From assembly GCA_028693975.1 (NCBI GenBank), contig JAQUUF010000001.1, positions 1 to 28,230 of the forward strand: 28,230 bases of DNA. Reading direction: 5' to 3'. This stretch comes from Acidaminococcaceae bacterium. GTDB taxonomy: Bacteria; Bacillota; Negativicutes; Acidaminococcales; Acidaminococcaceae. Position 1 is the first letter of the stretch. Every line of letters begins with the position of its first letter. Position numbers and translations under genes: made by a program. Below, in pieces: positions 10,665-19,098 of the stretch. The notes beneath the pieces are model-generated. The model ran no database searches. It worked only from the letters and a program-made list of their open reading frames with translations, and was not told the origin of the DNA.

Positions 10665-12974
10665 ATGTTGGACCAAATTAAGAATATACATTTCATCGGC
10701 ATTGGTGGCGTGGGCATGAGTGCATTGGCCTATGTCCTGATCAAGAGAGGCTACCATGTGACTGGTTCTGATGCCAAGGCAGGTTATATGGCCAATAAGT
10801 TAGCTGACGAGGGAGCGGTGGTCTTCATAGGTCATGCTGCTTGCCAGGTAGAAGGTGCTGAAGCCGTAGTAATCTCTACAGCTATCAGCCAGGATAATCC
10901 TGAATTAGTGGAAGCCAAAAAACGTCAGATTCCCATCTTACATCGCAGTGATGTATTGGCTTATTTGATTAATAAGAATAAAGGTATTGCAGTAGCCGGT
11001 GCCCACGGCAAGACTACAACTAGCTCTATGTTGGCCTGTATTTGCAGTGCAGCTCAGCTAGATCCTACAGTTGTTGTAGGCGGGCTAGTGAAGAATTTGG
11101 GAGGCAATGCTCTTAATGGACAAGGTGACCTAGTAGTGGCTGAGGCTGATGAGAGCGATGGTTCTTTTTTGAAGTTCCATCCGTTCATCGAGGTTATTAC
11201 TAATATCGAAAATGACCATTTGGACCATTACGGCAGTGAGGAAAAAATCCAAGAAGCTTTTGCAGAATTTACTCGTAATATGAAAGATGGCGGCAGTGTA
11301 GTGCTGTGTTTTGATAACGCCAAAGTTCGCTCTTTGGTCAAAAACAAAGAGAAACATGTAATTACTTATGGTATCGATTGTCCTACGGCAGATTATGTAG
11401 CCAAACACATTGATTATCAAGCCAATGGTACTTTGTTTGATGTATATTATAAAGACGAATTCTTAGCTCAGGCCAGGCTGCAGATTCCAGGCAAACATAA
11501 TGTTCTTAATGCCTTGGGTGCTATCGCTGCCTCCAGAATATTGGGTATTGAATTGGCAAGCATTTTACAAACGCTGTCTATTTTTACCGGTGCCGCAAGA
11601 CGTTTCGAAACCAAAGGTAAGATTAATGGTATCTGGGTAGTGGATGATTATGCACATCATCCCACAGAAATTAAAGCAACTTTGGTAGCAGCCAAGCAAA
11701 CCAAACCGCAAAGATTAATTTGTGCGTTTCAACCTCATAGATATACCAGAACGCAATTGTTAATAGATGAATTTAGTAATGCTTTTGTAGAGTGCGATGA
11801 ACTTATTTTGGCCGATATTTATGCAGCTAGCGAAACACCATTACCAGGAATTACCAGCGATTATTTGGCTCAAAAAATACATGAGAAAACAGGCCAACAG
11901 GTACGAGTTATCCATAGTATAGATGATATTGTGATCTATCTTGAACAAGAGGCTCAGGCAGGAGATTTGATTATTACGATGGGTGCCGGTGATATTTATC
12001 TGGCTGGTGATAGATTGGTAAAAAAGTTAAATGGGAGAGAAAAAATGACTAAAGAACGTATCGCAGTAGTAATGGGAGGACCTTCTAAGGAAGCAGAAAT
12101 TTCTATGTTGACAGGCAATGCTATTTTGACCGCATTACTTGAAAAAGGCTATGATGCTGTTGCCTTGGAGTTAAACCCAGAACATTTTGTAGAAGAACTA
12201 CGCGCTACCGGTGCTACTATGGTATTTAATGCAGTCCATGGTCTCTATGGTGAAGATGGCCGCTTGCAAAGTGTGCTAGAAATGCTGAATATGCCTTATA
12301 CAGGTTCAGGGGTTTTGGCTAGTGCGCTTTCTATGGATAAGGTCTATACCAAGAGAATTTTTAGTGAAGAAAATGTTTCTACAGCTAGGTACATGGTTGT
12401 CAACAAACGCGACCAAGCTACGGCGGTAGAGCAGATCCTGGCTCAGTTTACGCTTCCTTTGGTGGTCAAAGCATCTTCCCAAGGTTCAAGTATTGGTGTG
12501 GAGATAGTGAAAGAAGCAGAAGCTTTGCCTCATGCTCTAGAAGATGCCTTCTCCTATGGCGATGAAATTCTGATTGAGGAATATATCAAAGGCAAGGAAG
12601 CTACAGTTGTAGTTATGATGACTAAGGATGGTCCTCAGGCTTTACCGGTTATTCAAATAGTACCTCATTCCGGTGCTTATGATTTTAAATCTAAATATAC
12701 CAAGGGTGCTACGGATTATTTGGTACCGGCTCCTTTTGACGAAGCTACCACCAAAGCTACTCAGGCAGTGGGTGTGGCAGCGTATAAGGCTCTCGGCTGT
12801 AATGGAGTTGCTCGTACAGATGTGATGCTAGATGAACATAATGTTCCTTATGCCCTAGAAGTTAATTCCGTGCCGGGTATGACAGCTACTTCTCTTGTAC
12901 CTAAGGCAGCGGCTGCAGTGGGAATCAGCTTCCCTGATTTGTGTGCGATGATAGTGGAATCTGTAAAAAAATAA
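10665..12974 (+). CDS. murC-ddl: In-frame fusion of MurC (about aa 1-455) and D-Ala-D-Ala ligase Ddl (from Met461)
   Basis: MurC motifs GIGGVGMS, GAHGKTTTS, EADESDG, DDYAHHPTEI, FQPHRYTRT. Ddl motifs GGPSKEAEIS, HGLYGEDG, QGSSIGV, YDFKSKY, EVNSVPG. No stop between the two parts. Confidence 0.9.
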   Translation: MLDQIKNIHFIGIGGVGMSALAYVLIKRGYHVTGSDAKAGYMANKLADEGAVVFIGHAACQVEGAEAVVISTAISQDNPELVEAKKRQIPILHRSDVLAYLINKNKGIAVAGAHGKTTTSSMLACICSAAQLDPTVVVGGLVKNLGGNALNGQGDLVVAEADESDGSFLKFHPFIEVITNIENDHLDHYGSEEKIQEAFAEFTRNMKDGGSVVLCFDNAKVRSLVKNKEKHVITYGIDCPTADYVAKHIDYQANGTLFDVYYKDEFLAQARLQIPGKHNVLNALGAIAASRILGIELASILQTLSIFTGAARRFETKGKINGIWVVDDYAHHPTEIKATLVAAKQTKPQRLICAFQPHRYTRTQLLIDEFSNAFVECDELILADIYAASETPLPGITSDYLAQKIHEKTGQQVRVIHSIDDIVIYLEQEAQAGDLIITMGAGDIYLAGDRLVKKLNGREKMTKERIAVVMGGPSKEAEISMLTGNAILTALLEKGYDAVALELNPEHFVEELRATGATMVFNAVHGLYGEDGRLQSVLEMLNMPYTGSGVLASALSMDKVYTKRIFSEENVSTARYMVVNKRDQATAVEQILAQFTLPLVVKASSQGSSIGVEIVKEAEALPHALEDAFSYGDEILIEEYIKGKEATVVVMMTKDGPQALPVIQIVPHSGAYDFKSKYTKGATDYLVPAPFDEATTKATQAVGVAAYKALGCNGVARTDVMLDEHNVPYALEVNSVPGMTATSLVPKAAAAVGISFPDLCAMIVESVKK

Positions 12975-16028: not shown

Positions 16029-16059
16029 AAGCCGCAACCGATTAGTGGTTGCGGCTTTT
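16029..16059 (+). terminator. Intrinsic terminator after ftsZ
   Basis: AAGCCGCAACC (16029-16039) / GGTTGCGGCTT (16047-16057), with a T4 tract at 16056-16059. Confidence 0.8.
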
Positions 16060-16105
16060 GCTATATCTTGTAGTCAAATGTAATAGTGGACGCAAGATAT
16101 TGCTT
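16058..16105 (+). promoter_or_regulatory. Tandem NrdR boxes
   Basis: ttgCTATATCTTGtag (16058-16073) and acgCAAGATATTGctt (16090-16105). Cores each match CwAtATaTwG at 9/10 and start 32 bp apart. Confidence 0.85.
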
Positions 16106-16115
16106 GTGATATAAT
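16087..16115 (+). promoter_or_regulatory. Sigma-A promoter of nrdR-nrdD-nrdG
   Basis: TGGACG (16087-16092), 17-bp spacer, and TGaTATAAT (16107-16115). Confidence 0.75.
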
Positions 16116-16156: not shown

Positions 16157-16636
16157 ATGAAATGTCCTTTTTGCTCATATGGCGATAGTCGTGTGGTTGA
16201 TTCGCGCTCTATTGATGGTGGTACCTCCATCAGGAGAAGAAGAGAGTGCCCGGAATGTGGGCGTAGATTTACCACATATGAGAAGTATGAGGAAACACCT
16301 TTGTTAGTAACCAAAAAAGATGGGCGCAGAGAATTGTTTGATTCCCAAAAGTTACTGAATGGTCTGATTAAGGCTTTTGAAAAACGGCCTGTTTCCTATG
16401 AGAAAATTCAAGAGATGGCCAATGTCATCGAGCGTGAATTGCGAACGCTAGGTGAGGCTGAAATCACTAGCGAGGTTATTGGTGAGACTGTTATGAAGCA
16501 TCTGGAGAAGGTGGATCAGATTGCCTATGTACGTTTTGCTTCGGTGTACCGTCAGTTTGCCGATGTTAATAATTTTATGCAAGAGATTCAGAAAATGATG
16601 AAACGTGAGAAAAAAGAAATTAAAGAACAAGAGTAG
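16157..16636 (+). CDS. nrdR: Transcriptional repressor NrdR
   Basis: MKCPFC...DSR...[18 protein letters not shown] Zn ribbon, ATP cone, [12 protein letters not shown]. Confidence 0.98.
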
Positions 16637-16648
16637 GAGTGAGTACCT

Positions 16649-18592
16649 GTGTTGATTCGCAAAAGAGATGGACGCGAAGTAGAATTTGATGATACCAAAA
16701 TTACTGATGCGATTTTTGCCGCTGCCAAAGCGGTAGGAGGCACTGACCGCCAGATGGCCATGGAGATTACGGCTAAGGTATTAGAGTATATTACTGACAA
16801 CTACAAAGGAGTTGTTACTGTAGAAGATGTGCAGGATACTGTGGAGAAGGTGCTGATGAAGAGTGGTCACTCCAAGACTGCTAAGGCCTATATTCTCTAT
16901 AGAGCCAAAAGAACGGCTATCCGCAATGCGCGTAGCGAGTTAATGGATACTGTAGGAGAGATTCTCAAAGAAACAGATAGAGATAATGCTAATATTTCTA
17001 ATTCTCCTTCTGCCAAGATGCTACAGATAGCTAGTGCGGCCAGTCGTGAATATTATCTTAATAGGTTGATTCCGGAGAGAATTGCTCTAGCCCATAAGCG
17101 CGGTGATATTCATATTCATGATTTGGATTTTTATGGTAAGACAGTAAATTGTCTCAATATTCCCTTGGGTAAGTTGTTAAAGACTGGGTTTAACAATGGA
17201 CATGGGTTTATTCGCCCGCCTAAGCGTCCTGGCAGTGCGACTGCTCTTGCTGCGATTGTTCTCCAAAGCTCGCAGAACGATATGTTTGGCGGTCAGTCTT
17301 TTGGATTTTTCGATAGAGATATGGCTCCCTTTATGGATGGAGCTAGTGATGAAGAAGTATTCCAGGCTATGGAAGCTTTTATTTATAATTTGAACAGCAT
17401 GCATTCACGGGCTGGCGCCCAAGTTCCTTTCTCCAGTTTGAATTTGGGTCTAGATACCAGTGATAACGGACGTAAGGTAACGCATAATATTCTGAAGGCT
17501 TATGCCAAGGGTCTGGGCCATGGCGAGAACCCCATTTTCCCCAATGTTATCTTCCGCGTGAAGAAGGGGATTAATATGGACCCGGGCGACCCCAACTATG
17601 ATTTGTTCCAAGAGGCTATTGCTGTGGCAGCACGCCGCATGAATCCGACCTTCAGTTTCATGGATACTTCTTATAATTCCCCTTATGGCGGTGATGTAGC
17701 ATATATGGGTTGTCGCACTAGAGTAATATCTAATCGTTGTGGTCCGGAAGTAACCGATGGCCGCGGCAACCTCTCTTTTACTACTATTAATCTACCCCGT
17801 TTGGCTATCAAAGCAGAGCATGATATTATGCGCTTCTACCAATACTTAGATGAAATTTGTGATTTGGTTACAGAACAGCTCTTACACCGTTTCCACGTTC
17901 AAGCTAATCTTAAAGTGCGTGATTTGCCTTTTGTCATGGGACAGGGCTTATATCTAGGCAGTGAGAAGTTGAGCATGAGTGATACTATTGGACCGGCGTT
18001 GGTCAATGGTACTTTGACTTTGGGCTATATTGGTCTGGCTGAGACCTTGACAGCCTTAGTTGGACATCACCATGGTCAAGGCGAAGATGCTCAGAAGCTA
18101 GGTCTAGAAATAGTGGCTTTTATGCGTGACAAGATGGACAAAGCCGCTGAGAAGTATGATTTGAATTTTAGCATGATAGCCACTCCGGCAGAGGGCTTGT
18201 CCGGACGCTTTATTAGGATGGACAAGAGAGAATATGGTATTATCCCGGGCGTGACGGATAAAGCTTACTACACTAATTCTAATCATATACCGGTTAACTT
18301 CAAGATTAGCGCTTATGAGAAGATGCGTTTAGAGGGACCTTATTGTAAATATTCCAATGGCGGTCATATCAGTTATGTAGAGTTCTCGGCTTCTCCAGTT
18401 AATAATCTAGGTGCGGTAGAAGATATTTTAAGACATATGTGTGCTTGCGACTGTGGTTATGTAGGAATTAATTTTCCTATTGATTACTGCTCTAATTGCG
18501 GTTACACAGGAATAATTGACAGTGATTATTGTCCTCAATGCTCTGCTAAGTTTGAGCGCAGACTCAAACGCAAGAGTTGTGGTGATAATTAA
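16649..18592 (+). CDS. nrdD: Anaerobic (class III) ribonucleotide reductase large subunit with non-canonical, truncated C-terminus
   Basis: ATP cone (IRKRDGREVEFD), IHIHDLDFY, NC, HSRAGAQVPFSS, finger-loop YMGCRT, TPAEG, YYTNS, GGHISY and Zn ribbon CSNC/CPQC. No RxxGY motif. Confidence 0.95.
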   Translation: MLIRKRDGREVEFDDTKITDAIFAAAKAVGGTDRQMAMEITAKVLEYITDNYKGVVTVEDVQDTVEKVLMKSGHSKTAKAYILYRAKRTAIRNARSELMDTVGEILKETDRDNANISNSPSAKMLQIASAASREYYLNRLIPERIALAHKRGDIHIHDLDFYGKTVNCLNIPLGKLLKTGFNNGHGFIRPPKRPGSATALAAIVLQSSQNDMFGGQSFGFFDRDMAPFMDGASDEEVFQAMEAFIYNLNSMHSRAGAQVPFSSLNLGLDTSDNGRKVTHNILKAYAKGLGHGENPIFPNVIFRVKKGINMDPGDPNYDLFQEAIAVAARRMNPTFSFMDTSYNSPYGGDVAYMGCRTRVISNRCGPEVTDGRGNLSFTTINLPRLAIKAEHDIMRFYQYLDEICDLVTEQLLHRFHVQANLKVRDLPFVMGQGLYLGSEKLSMSDTIGPALVNGTLTLGYIGLAETLTALVGHHHGQGEDAQKLGLEIVAFMRDKMDKAAEKYDLNFSMIATPAEGLSGRFIRMDKREYGIIPGVTDKAYYTNSNHIPVNFKISAYEKMRLEGPYCKYSNGGHISYVEFSASPVNNLGAVEDILRHMCACDCGYVGINFPIDYCSNCGYTGIIDSDYCPQCSAKFERRLKRKSCGDN

Positions 18593-18609
18593 TAGTCAGA
18601 AGGAGAATC

Positions 18610-19098
18610 ATGTTACAGGTTGCAGATATTTTAGGTGAGTCGGTATGTGATGGTTTGGGTTTGCGCACAGTAGTATTCTTACAAGGTTGCCCACGGCATT
18701 GTAAGGGGTGCCATAATGCAGCACTTATTCCCTTTGAAGGTGGTCGTGCCTATACCCCTGCGGAATTAGCAGCAGCTATTTTGCAGAAGCTGACGCCTAT
18801 TCATCGCGGTGTTACCTTCAGCGGCGGCGACCCTCTAGCACAAGCAAAAGAGCTGGAACAAGTGATACCTTTGGTGCGGCAAGAACGACCTGATATTAAT
18901 ATTTGGGTGTATACCGGATATTTATATGAAGATGTTAAAGATTATCCGGTGCTGCGATTAATAGATGTTTTGGTGGACGGACCCTTTATTTTGGAGCAAA
19001 GGGATATTAGCCTACCCTTTAAAGGTAGCGGTAACCAACGTCTCATTGACGTTCTTCAAACTTTGGCTCAAGGTAGCGTAGCAGTATTGAGCTTGTAA
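18610..19098 (+). CDS. nrdG: Class III RNR activating enzyme (radical SAM)
   Basis: DGLGLRTVVFLQGCPRHCKGCHN (CxxxCxxC), GVTFSGGDP, WVYTGY, DVLVDGPF and FKGSGNQR motifs. Confidence 0.96.
   Translation: MLQVADILGESVCDGLGLRTVVFLQGCPRHCKGCHNAALIPFEGGRAYTPAELAAAILQKLTPIHRGVTFSGGDPLAQAKELEQVIPLVRQERPDINIWVYTGYLYEDVKDYPVLRLIDVLVDGPFILEQRDISLPFKGSGNQRLIDVLQTLAQGSVAVLSL

What the first reader, a model, noticed from the sequence alone, without database searches (positions are those of the whole stretch)
18490..18612. Class III ribonucleotide reductase whose glycyl-radical loop has degenerated: candidate split enzyme with a trans-acting radical domain
Seen: NrdD keeps its ATP cone, both catalytic-region Cys (NC and YMGCRT) and the Zn ribbon (CSNC...CPQC), but ends 16 residues later as SAKFERRLKRKSCGDN, followed by tandem TAA TAG and the nrdG RBS. 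Established: class III RNRs carry the radical on the Gly of an RR[IV][CT]GY motif followed by a further ~20-30 residues (Gly580 in T4, Gly681 in E. coli), installed by NrdG. Here only a vestige aligns (RKSCGD versus RRVCGY), and no GY codon pair exists in any frame before nrdG, so no indel restores it. nrdG, nrdR and the operators are intact. Inference: (a) the radical is carried by a separate small RxxGY protein encoded elsewhere, acting like the GrcA/YfiD spare part of pyruvate formate-lyase but as a permanent, replaceable and O2-sacrificial subunit; (b) Gly at 18581-18583 in a novel minimal motif is still activated; or (c) a second full-length nrdD does the job. Option (a) or (b) would be an uncharacterised RNR architecture. 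I recall short stand-alone RITGY-containing proteins annotated as NrdD fragments in Firmicutes, but cannot verify that here.
Basis: partly seen in the sequence, partly recalled or inferred. Interest (0 to 1): 0.85.

Follow-up and report, generated by a model that had tools for sequence, protein, structure and literature searches.

The report
Two-piece anaerobic ribonucleotide reductase
This bacterium's anaerobic DNA-precursor enzyme (NrdD) naturally lacks the short tail that carries its catalytic radical, and that tail is encoded instead by a separate 89-residue gene elsewhere in the genome; such a detachable radical part is so far described only for pyruvate formate-lyase.

Summary
NrdD (16649-18592, 647 aa) has its ATP-cone, both catalytic Cys and the zinc ribbon, but stops 16 residues after the ribbon. 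There is no RxxGY motif in any frame, and an intact nrdG follows.

- The same genome (contig C79 = L003:1330-1599) encodes an 89-aa protein whose last 34 residues are 65% identical to the missing tail of the closest full-length NrdD.
- In 101 genomes of the family, 27 of 29 with truncated NrdD have the small gene, against 0 of 72 others.
- In Selenomonadaceae the figures are 52 of 52 against 0 of 5. Half of the 52 have the operon nrdD-small-nrdG.
- Three complete genomes, including Megamonas hypermegale, have no other ribonucleotide reductase.
- The unlinked small gene carries NrdR operator-like boxes.
- A complex model scored 0.86 (best control 0.00; the mark was reached by 58 of 80 solved complexes and 2 of 110 mismatched pairs). 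It puts Gly66 beside Cys355.

Option (b) is rejected: the terminal Gly is not conserved. Option (c) is true here (a second nrdD and an nrdJ-like gene exist) but does not explain the pattern.

No description was found in the literature searched. This scan has reported the small-protein family eight times on other DNA. Binding, activation and activity remain untested.

The parts
16058..16105 (.). Two NrdR-box-like sites (16058-16073 and 16090-16105), 32 bp apart. They overlap a promoter-like site (16087-16115) upstream of nrdR-nrdD-nrdG.
   Evidence: The sites have 6 and 4 mismatches to a consensus that I recalled from memory. That consensus was checked in this genome by tandem sites in front of the nrdJ-like gene on C62 and in front of an ATP-cone gene start on C193.
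16157..16636 (+). nrdR, the repressor of nrd genes (zinc ribbon plus ATP-cone).
   Evidence: PF22811 at 6.7e-22 and PF03477 at 2.3e-22.
16649..18592 (+). nrdD, the catalytic subunit of a class III ribonucleotide reductase, naturally lacking the glycyl-radical tail (647 aa).
   Evidence: PF13597 at 3.9e-177, covering profile positions 1-529 of 562. NF005497 at 973 bits (cut-off 764), ending at profile position 717 of 746; the truncation is shared by orthologues.
17711..17713 (+). Codon of Cys355, the finger-loop cysteine that becomes the thiyl radical.
   Evidence: The residue is invariant in 50 aligned NrdD, 29 of them truncated. It lies in the predicted interface with residues 47-70 of the small protein.
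18488..18541 (+). Zinc ribbon: Cys614, Cys617, Cys628 and Cys631.
   Evidence: The cysteines are conserved in alignment A3.
18542..18595 (+). A 16-residue remnant tail ending in S-C-G-D-N, followed by tandem stops TAA TAG. The protein ends about where the radical Gly sits in full-length relatives (+13 after the ribbon).
   Evidence: The tail is variable among truncated orthologues and often rich in Cys. The Gly is not conserved.
18610..19098 (+). nrdG, the radical-SAM activating enzyme, intact.
   Evidence: TIGR02491 at 130.6 bits (cut-off 126.1). CxxxCxxC motif present.

Best explanation
The window encodes the large subunit of a two-piece class III ribonucleotide reductase.

The parts are:
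- NrdD (647 aa) supplies the barrel, the allosteric ATP-cone, the catalytic cysteines and the zinc ribbon, but no radical-bearing glycine.
- An unlinked 89-residue protein (G000 contig C79, L003:1330-1599) supplies the glycyl-radical loop RRITGY and the helix after it, attached to a new 55-residue beta-beta-alpha-beta-beta domain.

The inferred mechanism is:
1. NrdG uses S-adenosylmethionine to abstract a hydrogen from Gly66 of the small protein.
2. The loop inserts into the NrdD barrel next to Cys355.
3. Radical transfer to Cys355 starts nucleotide reduction.
4. Oxygen would destroy only the small subunit, which can be replaced.

Comparative data suggest an evolutionary path. Many Negativicutes keep the small protein beside a full-length NrdD, a spare-part-like state. 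NrdD then lost its own tail repeatedly, which made the small protein obligatory.

Shown here: the gene content, the sequence complementarity, the co-occurrence, the operon arrangement, the NrdR-box-like sites and a structural model. Inferred: binding, activation by NrdG, catalysis and the repair role.
For: 1. Complementary sequences.
- NrdD matches NF005497 up to profile position 717, and the small protein matches positions 710-743 of the same profile.
- The last 34 residues of the small protein are 65% identical to the end of the nearest full-length NrdD. There is no similarity to the E. coli-type NrdD on C70.

2. Co-occurrence.
- In 101 genomes of the family, 27 of the 29 with a truncated NrdD have the small gene. 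The two misses are 93% and 85% complete. None of the 72 others has it.
- In Selenomonadaceae, 52 of 52 genomes with a truncated NrdD have it, against 0 of 5 with only full-length NrdD. In 26 of the 52 the small gene lies directly downstream of nrdD. Two of these loci, read in full, show the order nrdD-small-nrdG.

3. Necessity. Three single-contig genomes (G088 = Megamonas hypermegale, G211, G238) have no other NRDD, no PF02867 and no PF17975 match.

4. Regulation. NrdR-box-like palindromes with 4 or fewer mismatches lie 58-130 nt upstream of the small gene in this genome and in 10 of 11 relatives. In the 28-kb window only 1 position has 3 or fewer mismatches and 8 have 4 or fewer. A TTGACA-17-TATTAT promoter-like site lies beside the box.

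5. Conservation.
- The small family has invariant RxRRITGY, K and E residues.
- The catalytic residues of NrdD are invariant across truncated members.

6. Complex model. The score was 0.86 against a best control of 0.00. The mark was reached by 58 of 80 solved complexes and 2 of 110 mismatched pairs, and these counts hold only roughly here because my own alignments were used. The interface includes NrdD 354-356 and small-protein residues 47-70.

7. Repeated loss. The tail state changes at least 7-8 times on an NrdD tree.

8. Spare-part-like state. Full-length NrdD occurs with the small protein in 18 of 20 and 12 of 13 genomes of two other families.
Against: - No biochemical evidence exists for any member.
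- This genome also has a complete E. coli-type nrdD-nrdG pair and an nrdJ-like gene, so the split enzyme is not needed here for survival.
- The complex score may reflect the model's memory of full-length NrdD structures, in which the same contact is made within one chain. It therefore shows likeness, not binding.
- The NrdR-box consensus was recalled from memory, and the sites upstream of nrdR in the window are weak.
- The genome is a 72%-complete metagenome bin, so linking contigs C79 and C141 rests on binning and on the same pairing in relatives.
- Presence of the small gene in RNA libraries does not prove transcription.
Confidence: 0.85

Rival explanations
1. The truncated nrdD is a decaying or repurposed relic. 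The cell makes dNTPs with its E. coli-type NrdD and its nrdJ-like enzyme, and the small protein serves some other partner.
For: A second complete nrdD-nrdG pair lies on C70 and an nrdJ-like gene on C62. In one complete relative (G200) the truncated nrdD lies in two reading frames.
Against: - The truncated form is kept at 70-83% identity with all catalytic and zinc-ribbon residues invariant.
- It retains an intact nrdG and nrdR.
- None of the 72 family genomes that have only the E. coli-type NrdD carries the small gene.
- The small protein's tail resembles the truncated lineage, not the E. coli type.
- In three complete Selenomonadaceae genomes the split pair is the only reductase found.
Confidence: 0.06
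2. The truncated NrdD needs no glycyl radical. NrdG, or another radical source, generates the Cys355 thiyl radical directly, and the small protein is only a spare part for full-length enzymes or a regulator.
For: Class II enzymes generate the thiyl radical from a deoxyadenosyl radical without a protein radical store (established knowledge). The small protein also occurs beside full-length NrdD.
Against: - The small gene pairs strictly with truncated NrdD in two families.
- It sits between nrdD and nrdG in operons.
- The Gly loop is invariant.
- The model places that loop at Cys355.
Confidence: 0.05
3. NrdD's own terminal Gly645 (18581-18583) is the radical site, in a minimal motif.
For: The tail reads K-S-C-G-D, loosely like R-V-C-G-Y of E. 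coli NrdD.
Against: - Only 14 of 42 truncated tails contain any Gly, and none at a conserved position.
- Close orthologues end in sequences such as L-C-S-C or D-L-Q-H-S.
- The Tyr and the helix that follows the loop are missing.
Confidence: 0.01

Closest known systems
GrcA/YfiD of E. coli and Y06I of phage T4 (autonomous glycyl radical cofactors for pyruvate formate-lyase)
   Same: Each is a small stand-alone protein that copies the C-terminal glycyl-radical domain of a large glycyl radical enzyme. It is activated by that enzyme's activase and works in trans on an enzyme that lacks its own domain.
   Different: - The partner here is a class III ribonucleotide reductase, not a formate lyase.
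- The small protein does not match the Gly_radical family PF01228.
- It has its own folded N-terminal domain rather than a disordered one.
- In this lineage the large enzyme is genetically truncated, so the small protein would be a permanent subunit rather than an emergency repair part.
[quoted passage not shown]
Canonical one-chain NrdD (T4, E. coli, Thermotoga maritima, Prevotella copri)
   Same: The barrel, the finger-loop Cys, the zinc ribbon, the ATP-cone, the NrdG activase and NrdR control are shared. The small protein's loop has the same RRITGY motif.
   Different: The radical loop and its helix are on a separate polypeptide, encoded by an unlinked gene.
Split class II reductase NrdJa/NrdJb of Pseudomonas aeruginosa
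   Same: It is a ribonucleotide reductase whose C-terminal part is encoded as a second polypeptide (PMC9669993).
   Different: NrdJb carries zinc-finger and IscU-like domains, not the radical site, because the class II radical comes from adenosylcobalamin.
Class I reductase R1/R2
   Same: Only the concept is shared: the stable radical is stored on a separate, smaller subunit.
   Different: The fold is an unrelated ferritin-like one, the radical is tyrosyl or metal-centred, and it is transferred over a long distance.

Membership tests
Class III ribonucleotide reductase catalytic subunit (NrdD) | Match to the NrdD barrel profiles above the curated cut-offs | tested here: met
   PF13597 at 590.8 bits (cut-off 26.2) and NF005497 at 973 bits (cut-off 764).
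Class III ribonucleotide reductase catalytic subunit (NrdD) | Finger-loop catalytic Cys and the second active-site Cys | tested here: met
   Cys355 in YMGCRT and Cys168 in NC. Both are invariant in alignment A3.
Class III ribonucleotide reductase catalytic subunit (NrdD) | Four-Cys zinc ribbon before the radical domain | tested here: met
   Cys614, Cys617, Cys628 and Cys631.
Class III ribonucleotide reductase catalytic subunit (NrdD) | C-terminal RxxGY glycyl-radical motif and following helix on the same chain | tested here: not met
   The protein ends 16 residues after the ribbon, and no frame holds the motif. The profile matches stop at 529 of 562 and 717 of 746.
Class III ribonucleotide reductase catalytic subunit (NrdD) | Dedicated radical-SAM activase NrdG | tested here: met
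   TIGR02491 at 130.6 bits (cut-off 126.1). The gene starts 18 nt after nrdD.
[quoted passage not shown] | Small stand-alone protein carrying a glycyl-radical loop | tested here: met
   L003:1330-1599 encodes 89 aa with an invariant RRITGY loop. The family was found at 593 or more loci in species-representative genomes.
[quoted passage not shown] | Sequence membership in the PFL-type Gly_radical family (PF01228) | tested here: not met
   The only Pfam match is PF13597 positions 533-562, at 25.0 bits against a cut-off of 26.2. There is no PF01228 match, and no dedicated NCBIfam model.
[quoted passage not shown] | Activated by the activase, and restores activity to an enzyme that lacks its radical domain | not testable with these tools
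   Only a structural model is available: score 0.86 against a best control of 0.00. The mark was reached by 58 of 80 solved complexes and 2 of 110 mismatched pairs.
NrdR regulon | NrdR-box palindromes in the promoter region | tested here: met
   A box with 3 mismatches lies 102 nt upstream of the small gene, beside a TTGACA-17-TATTAT site. Similar boxes occur in 10 of 11 relatives. The consensus was recalled from memory and checked on the nrdJ-like promoter of this genome.

The most novel reading that the evidence does not exclude
A class III ribonucleotide reductase that is obligately two-subunit. The glycyl radical would reside on a small, separately encoded, NrdR-regulated and replaceable protein. 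This form would have evolved repeatedly from a spare-part state, and it is the only reductase found in some cultured gut anaerobes such as Megamonas hypermegale.
Probability: 0.8. Interest if true: 0.85.

Novelty: new variant of a known kind. Interest (0 to 1): 0.8.

Why it matters
Class III reductases are taught as single-chain glycyl radical enzymes, and spare-part radical proteins are known only for pyruvate formate-lyase. A detachable radical subunit for the anaerobic reductase would matter in several ways:
- It would add a new subunit architecture to an essential and ancient enzyme family.
- It would explain how strict anaerobes limit the cost of oxygen damage to DNA-precursor synthesis.
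- It would correct the annotation of hundreds of 85-100-residue genes now named 'anaerobic ribonucleoside-triphosphate reductase' or 'hypothetical protein'.
- It would flag 'truncated' nrdD genes as functional.
- It offers a natural system for studying how the activase reaches the glycine, because the radical domain is free.
- It is directly testable with genes from cultured Megamonas.

Tried and rejected
- A frameshift or read-through that restores the tail: rejected. No frame holds the motif, and two stop codons follow.
- A strain-specific lesion or misassembly: rejected by 42 truncated orthologues and 29 family genomes.
- The terminal Gly645 as radical site: rejected, because it is not conserved.
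- The small protein as partner of the E. coli-type NrdD: rejected by sequence and by distribution.
- Fold search of the small protein alone against PDB: no match at E of 0.001 or better, so the N-terminal domain stays unassigned.
- Rfam scan of the window: nothing found.
- Literature searches for a described NrdD spare part or split class III enzyme: none found in the held library.
- Contigs of RNA libraries cover the small gene. In one run the depth falls from about 25 to about 6 shortly after its stop codon. The tool warns that this does not show transcription, so I treat it only as consistent.
- dN/dS for nrdD was not computed, because the nearest other species is only 83% identical in protein and synonymous sites would be saturated.
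Full report
**Observation**

The ORF at 16649-18592 encodes a 647-residue NrdD.
- It has an N-terminal ATP-cone.
- The active-site cysteines are Cys168 and Cys355.
- The zinc ribbon is formed by Cys614, Cys617, Cys628 and Cys631.
- It stops 16 residues after the last ribbon cysteine, at tandem TAA TAG (18590-18595).
- nrdG starts at 18610 behind a GAAGGAG ribosome-binding site.

The Pfam NRDD match covers profile positions 1-529 of 562. The best NCBIfam model, NF005497 (973 bits, cut-off 764), is matched only to position 717 of 746. No reading frame between the ribbon and nrdG holds an RxxGY motif. nrdR lies directly upstream. NrdG passes its equivalog cut-off and keeps its cluster-binding cysteines.

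**The truncation is inherited, not an accident**

Among the 120 closest NrdD proteins in public data, lengths fall into two groups.
- 78 carry a full-length tail. 75 of them have the RRITGY motif plus a helix, with the Gly exactly 13 residues after the ribbon.
- 42 end 12-26 residues after the ribbon, with variable tails.

The window's protein sits in a well-supported clade of 17, all truncated. On a quick tree the tail state changes at least 7-8 times. Some truncated proteins are close sisters of full-length ones and end within two or three residues of the Gly position.

All catalytic and ribbon residues are invariant in an alignment of 50 sequences, 29 of them truncated. Only 14 of the 42 truncated tails contain any Gly, at no fixed place.

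**The missing piece is in the same genome**

A search of the window's own assembly (a 72%-complete bin of 193 contigs) with the NRDD profile found three places:
- the window's gene;
- an E. coli-type nrdD with a full tail and its own nrdG, on contig C70;
- a match to profile positions 533-562 only, in a short open frame on contig C79.

The C79 frame (L003:1330-1599) encodes 89 residues. They begin with a 55-residue stretch that has no similarity to NrdD, and they end in the loop RRITGY followed by a helix.

The small protein matches NF005497 at positions 710-743, which is the part NrdD lacks. Its last 34 residues are 65% identical to the end of the closest full-length NrdD. It shows no similarity to the E. 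coli-type NrdD of C70.

Pfam and NCBIfam hold no model of their own for it. Databases call relatives 'anaerobic ribonucleoside-triphosphate reductase' or 'hypothetical protein'.

**The small protein is a conserved family**

85 close relatives of 79-108 residues align over their whole length, with invariant R-x-R-R-I-T-G-Y, Lys and Glu. A scan of one genome per species found at least 593 loci. They include Ruminococcus albus, Adlercreutzia, Erysipelotrichaceae, Christensenellaceae and Acidaminococcales bins.

**Co-occurrence**

| Group | Genomes with truncated NrdD that have the small gene | Comparison genomes that have the small gene |
|---|---|---|
| Window's family (Acidaminococcaceae-like), 101 genomes | 27 of 29 (the two misses are 93% and 85% complete) | 0 of 72 (only E. 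coli-type NrdD) |
| Family identified as Selenomonadaceae (its genome G088 is Megamonas hypermegale), 61 genomes | 52 of 52 | 0 of 5 (only full-length NrdD) |

In 26 of the 52 Selenomonadaceae genomes the small gene lies directly downstream of nrdD. Two such loci, read in full, show the order truncated nrdD, small gene, nrdG.

Three single-contig genomes of that family (99-100% complete) have no other NrdD. They also have no class I/II large subunit (PF02867) and no monomeric class II enzyme (PF17975). Unless these organisms import all deoxynucleosides, the split enzyme must work.

**A spare-part-like state also exists**

In two other families of the class, every genome has a full-length NrdD. 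The small gene is nevertheless present in 18 of 20 and in 12 of 13 genomes.

Three states were seen in the genomes searched: full-length NrdD alone, full-length NrdD with the small protein, and truncated NrdD with the small protein. Truncated NrdD without the small protein was seen only in the two incomplete bins. This fits a path in which a GrcA-like spare part made NrdD's own tail dispensable and the tail was then lost repeatedly. The direction of change is an inference.

**Regulation**

I recalled the NrdR-box palindrome from memory and checked it inside this genome. Tandem sites 33 bp apart lie directly upstream of the nrdJ-like gene on C62, and two more lie upstream of an ATP-cone gene start on C193.
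- The small gene on C79 has a box with 3 mismatches 102 nt before its ATG, next to a TTGACA-17-TATTAT promoter-like site.
- Boxes with 4 or fewer mismatches lie 58-130 nt upstream of the unlinked small gene in 10 of 11 relatives.
- In the 28-kb window only one position reaches 3 mismatches and eight reach 4 or fewer.
- Upstream of nrdR in the window there are two weaker sites 32 bp apart, overlapping a promoter-like site.

The small gene therefore appears to belong to the nrd regulon although it is unlinked.

**Structure**

Alone, the small protein is predicted as two hairpins around a helix, then a low-confidence loop holding the Gly, then a helix (mean pLDDT 78.5). No solved fold matched it.

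NrdD residues 100-647 were modelled together with the small protein.
- The score was 0.86 in each of three runs, against a best control of 0.00.
- The mark was reached by 58 of 80 solved complexes and 2 of 110 mismatched pairs. These counts hold only roughly here because my own alignments were used.
- The confident interface includes NrdD 354-356 (Gly-Cys-Arg of the finger loop), the zinc ribbon and the remnant tail, against small-protein residues 47-70, which contain Gly66, and the final helix.

Full-length NrdD structures contain the same contact within one chain. The pass therefore shows likeness to the canonical arrangement and is not proof of binding.

**Expression**

Contigs assembled from wastewater metatranscriptome libraries cover the small gene. 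In one run a 621-base contig spans the promoter region through the stop codon at depth 25, against about 6 just downstream. The only two strain differences inside the ORF are third-position synonymous changes, while 22 differences lie in the flanks. The tool warns that DNA can be present in such libraries, so this is only consistent with transcription.

**Literature and earlier scan reports**

[quoted passage not shown] A 2022 analysis of reductase extensions describes split class II enzymes but no split class III enzyme (PMC9669993). Further searches found no description.

This scan has already reported the small-protein family eight times on other DNA. I formed my reading before seeing those notes and tested the shared claims here independently.

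**Verdict**

Option (b) is rejected. Option (c) is true for this genome but is not the explanation.

What works like GrcA is not a member of the GrcA family. It is an NrdD-derived radical module with its own N-terminal domain, and in this lineage it would be a permanent subunit.

**Open questions**
- All the biochemistry.
- The role of the N-terminal domain.
- Whether NrdG acts on the free or the bound small protein.
- The meaning of the Cys-rich ends of many truncated NrdD tails.

Noticed in passing
window 18542-18589 and orthologues P0088-P0102: Truncated NrdD tails in the window's clade often end in Cys or Cys-Cys, 12-16 residues after the zinc ribbon. 19 of 42 truncated tails have a Cys and 13 have two or more, against 9 of 78 full-length tails. 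The two Selenomonadaceae truncated tails read in full (L020, L021) also carry Cys near the end. The function is unknown. This could be a redox or metal site, or a contact with the small subunit.
   Followed up: partly
P0141, P0146, P0153 (Propionispora sp. 2/2-37 clade): These NrdD have a full-length tail, but the radical Gly is replaced by Ser or Thr (R-I-T-S-Y, R-V-T-T-Y). They form one supported clade. They could be an intermediate on the way to dependence on the small protein, or a non-glycine radical site like the aminoacyl radical enzymes of PMC11528403.
   Followed up: no
window 10665-12974: A 769-residue ORF in the cell-division/cell-wall cluster fuses a MurC-type Mur ligase to D-Ala-D-Ala ligase.
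   Followed up: no
G000 contigs C70 (L002), C62 (L026) and C193: The genome also has an E. coli-type nrdD-nrdG pair (cut by the contig end) and an nrdJ-like 754-residue gene preceded by tandem NrdR boxes. On C193 an ATP-cone gene start lies behind two further boxes at the contig end, and may be the 5' end of the C70 gene.
   Followed up: partly
G014, G048, G058 and relatives (family f17): One NrdD copy lies in a 1157-1200-residue open frame, with about 500 extra residues inserted near profile position 150. The insertion looks intein-like.
   Followed up: no
G200:C1:1648235-1650045: In one complete relative the truncated nrdD lies in two reading frames (query positions 3-316 and 354-646), only 7 kb from the small gene. 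This could be a frameshift, an assembly error or decay.
   Followed up: no
L003:535-1176: The gene upstream of the small gene encodes a 213-residue protein with an apparent signal peptide and no Pfam match.
   Followed up: no
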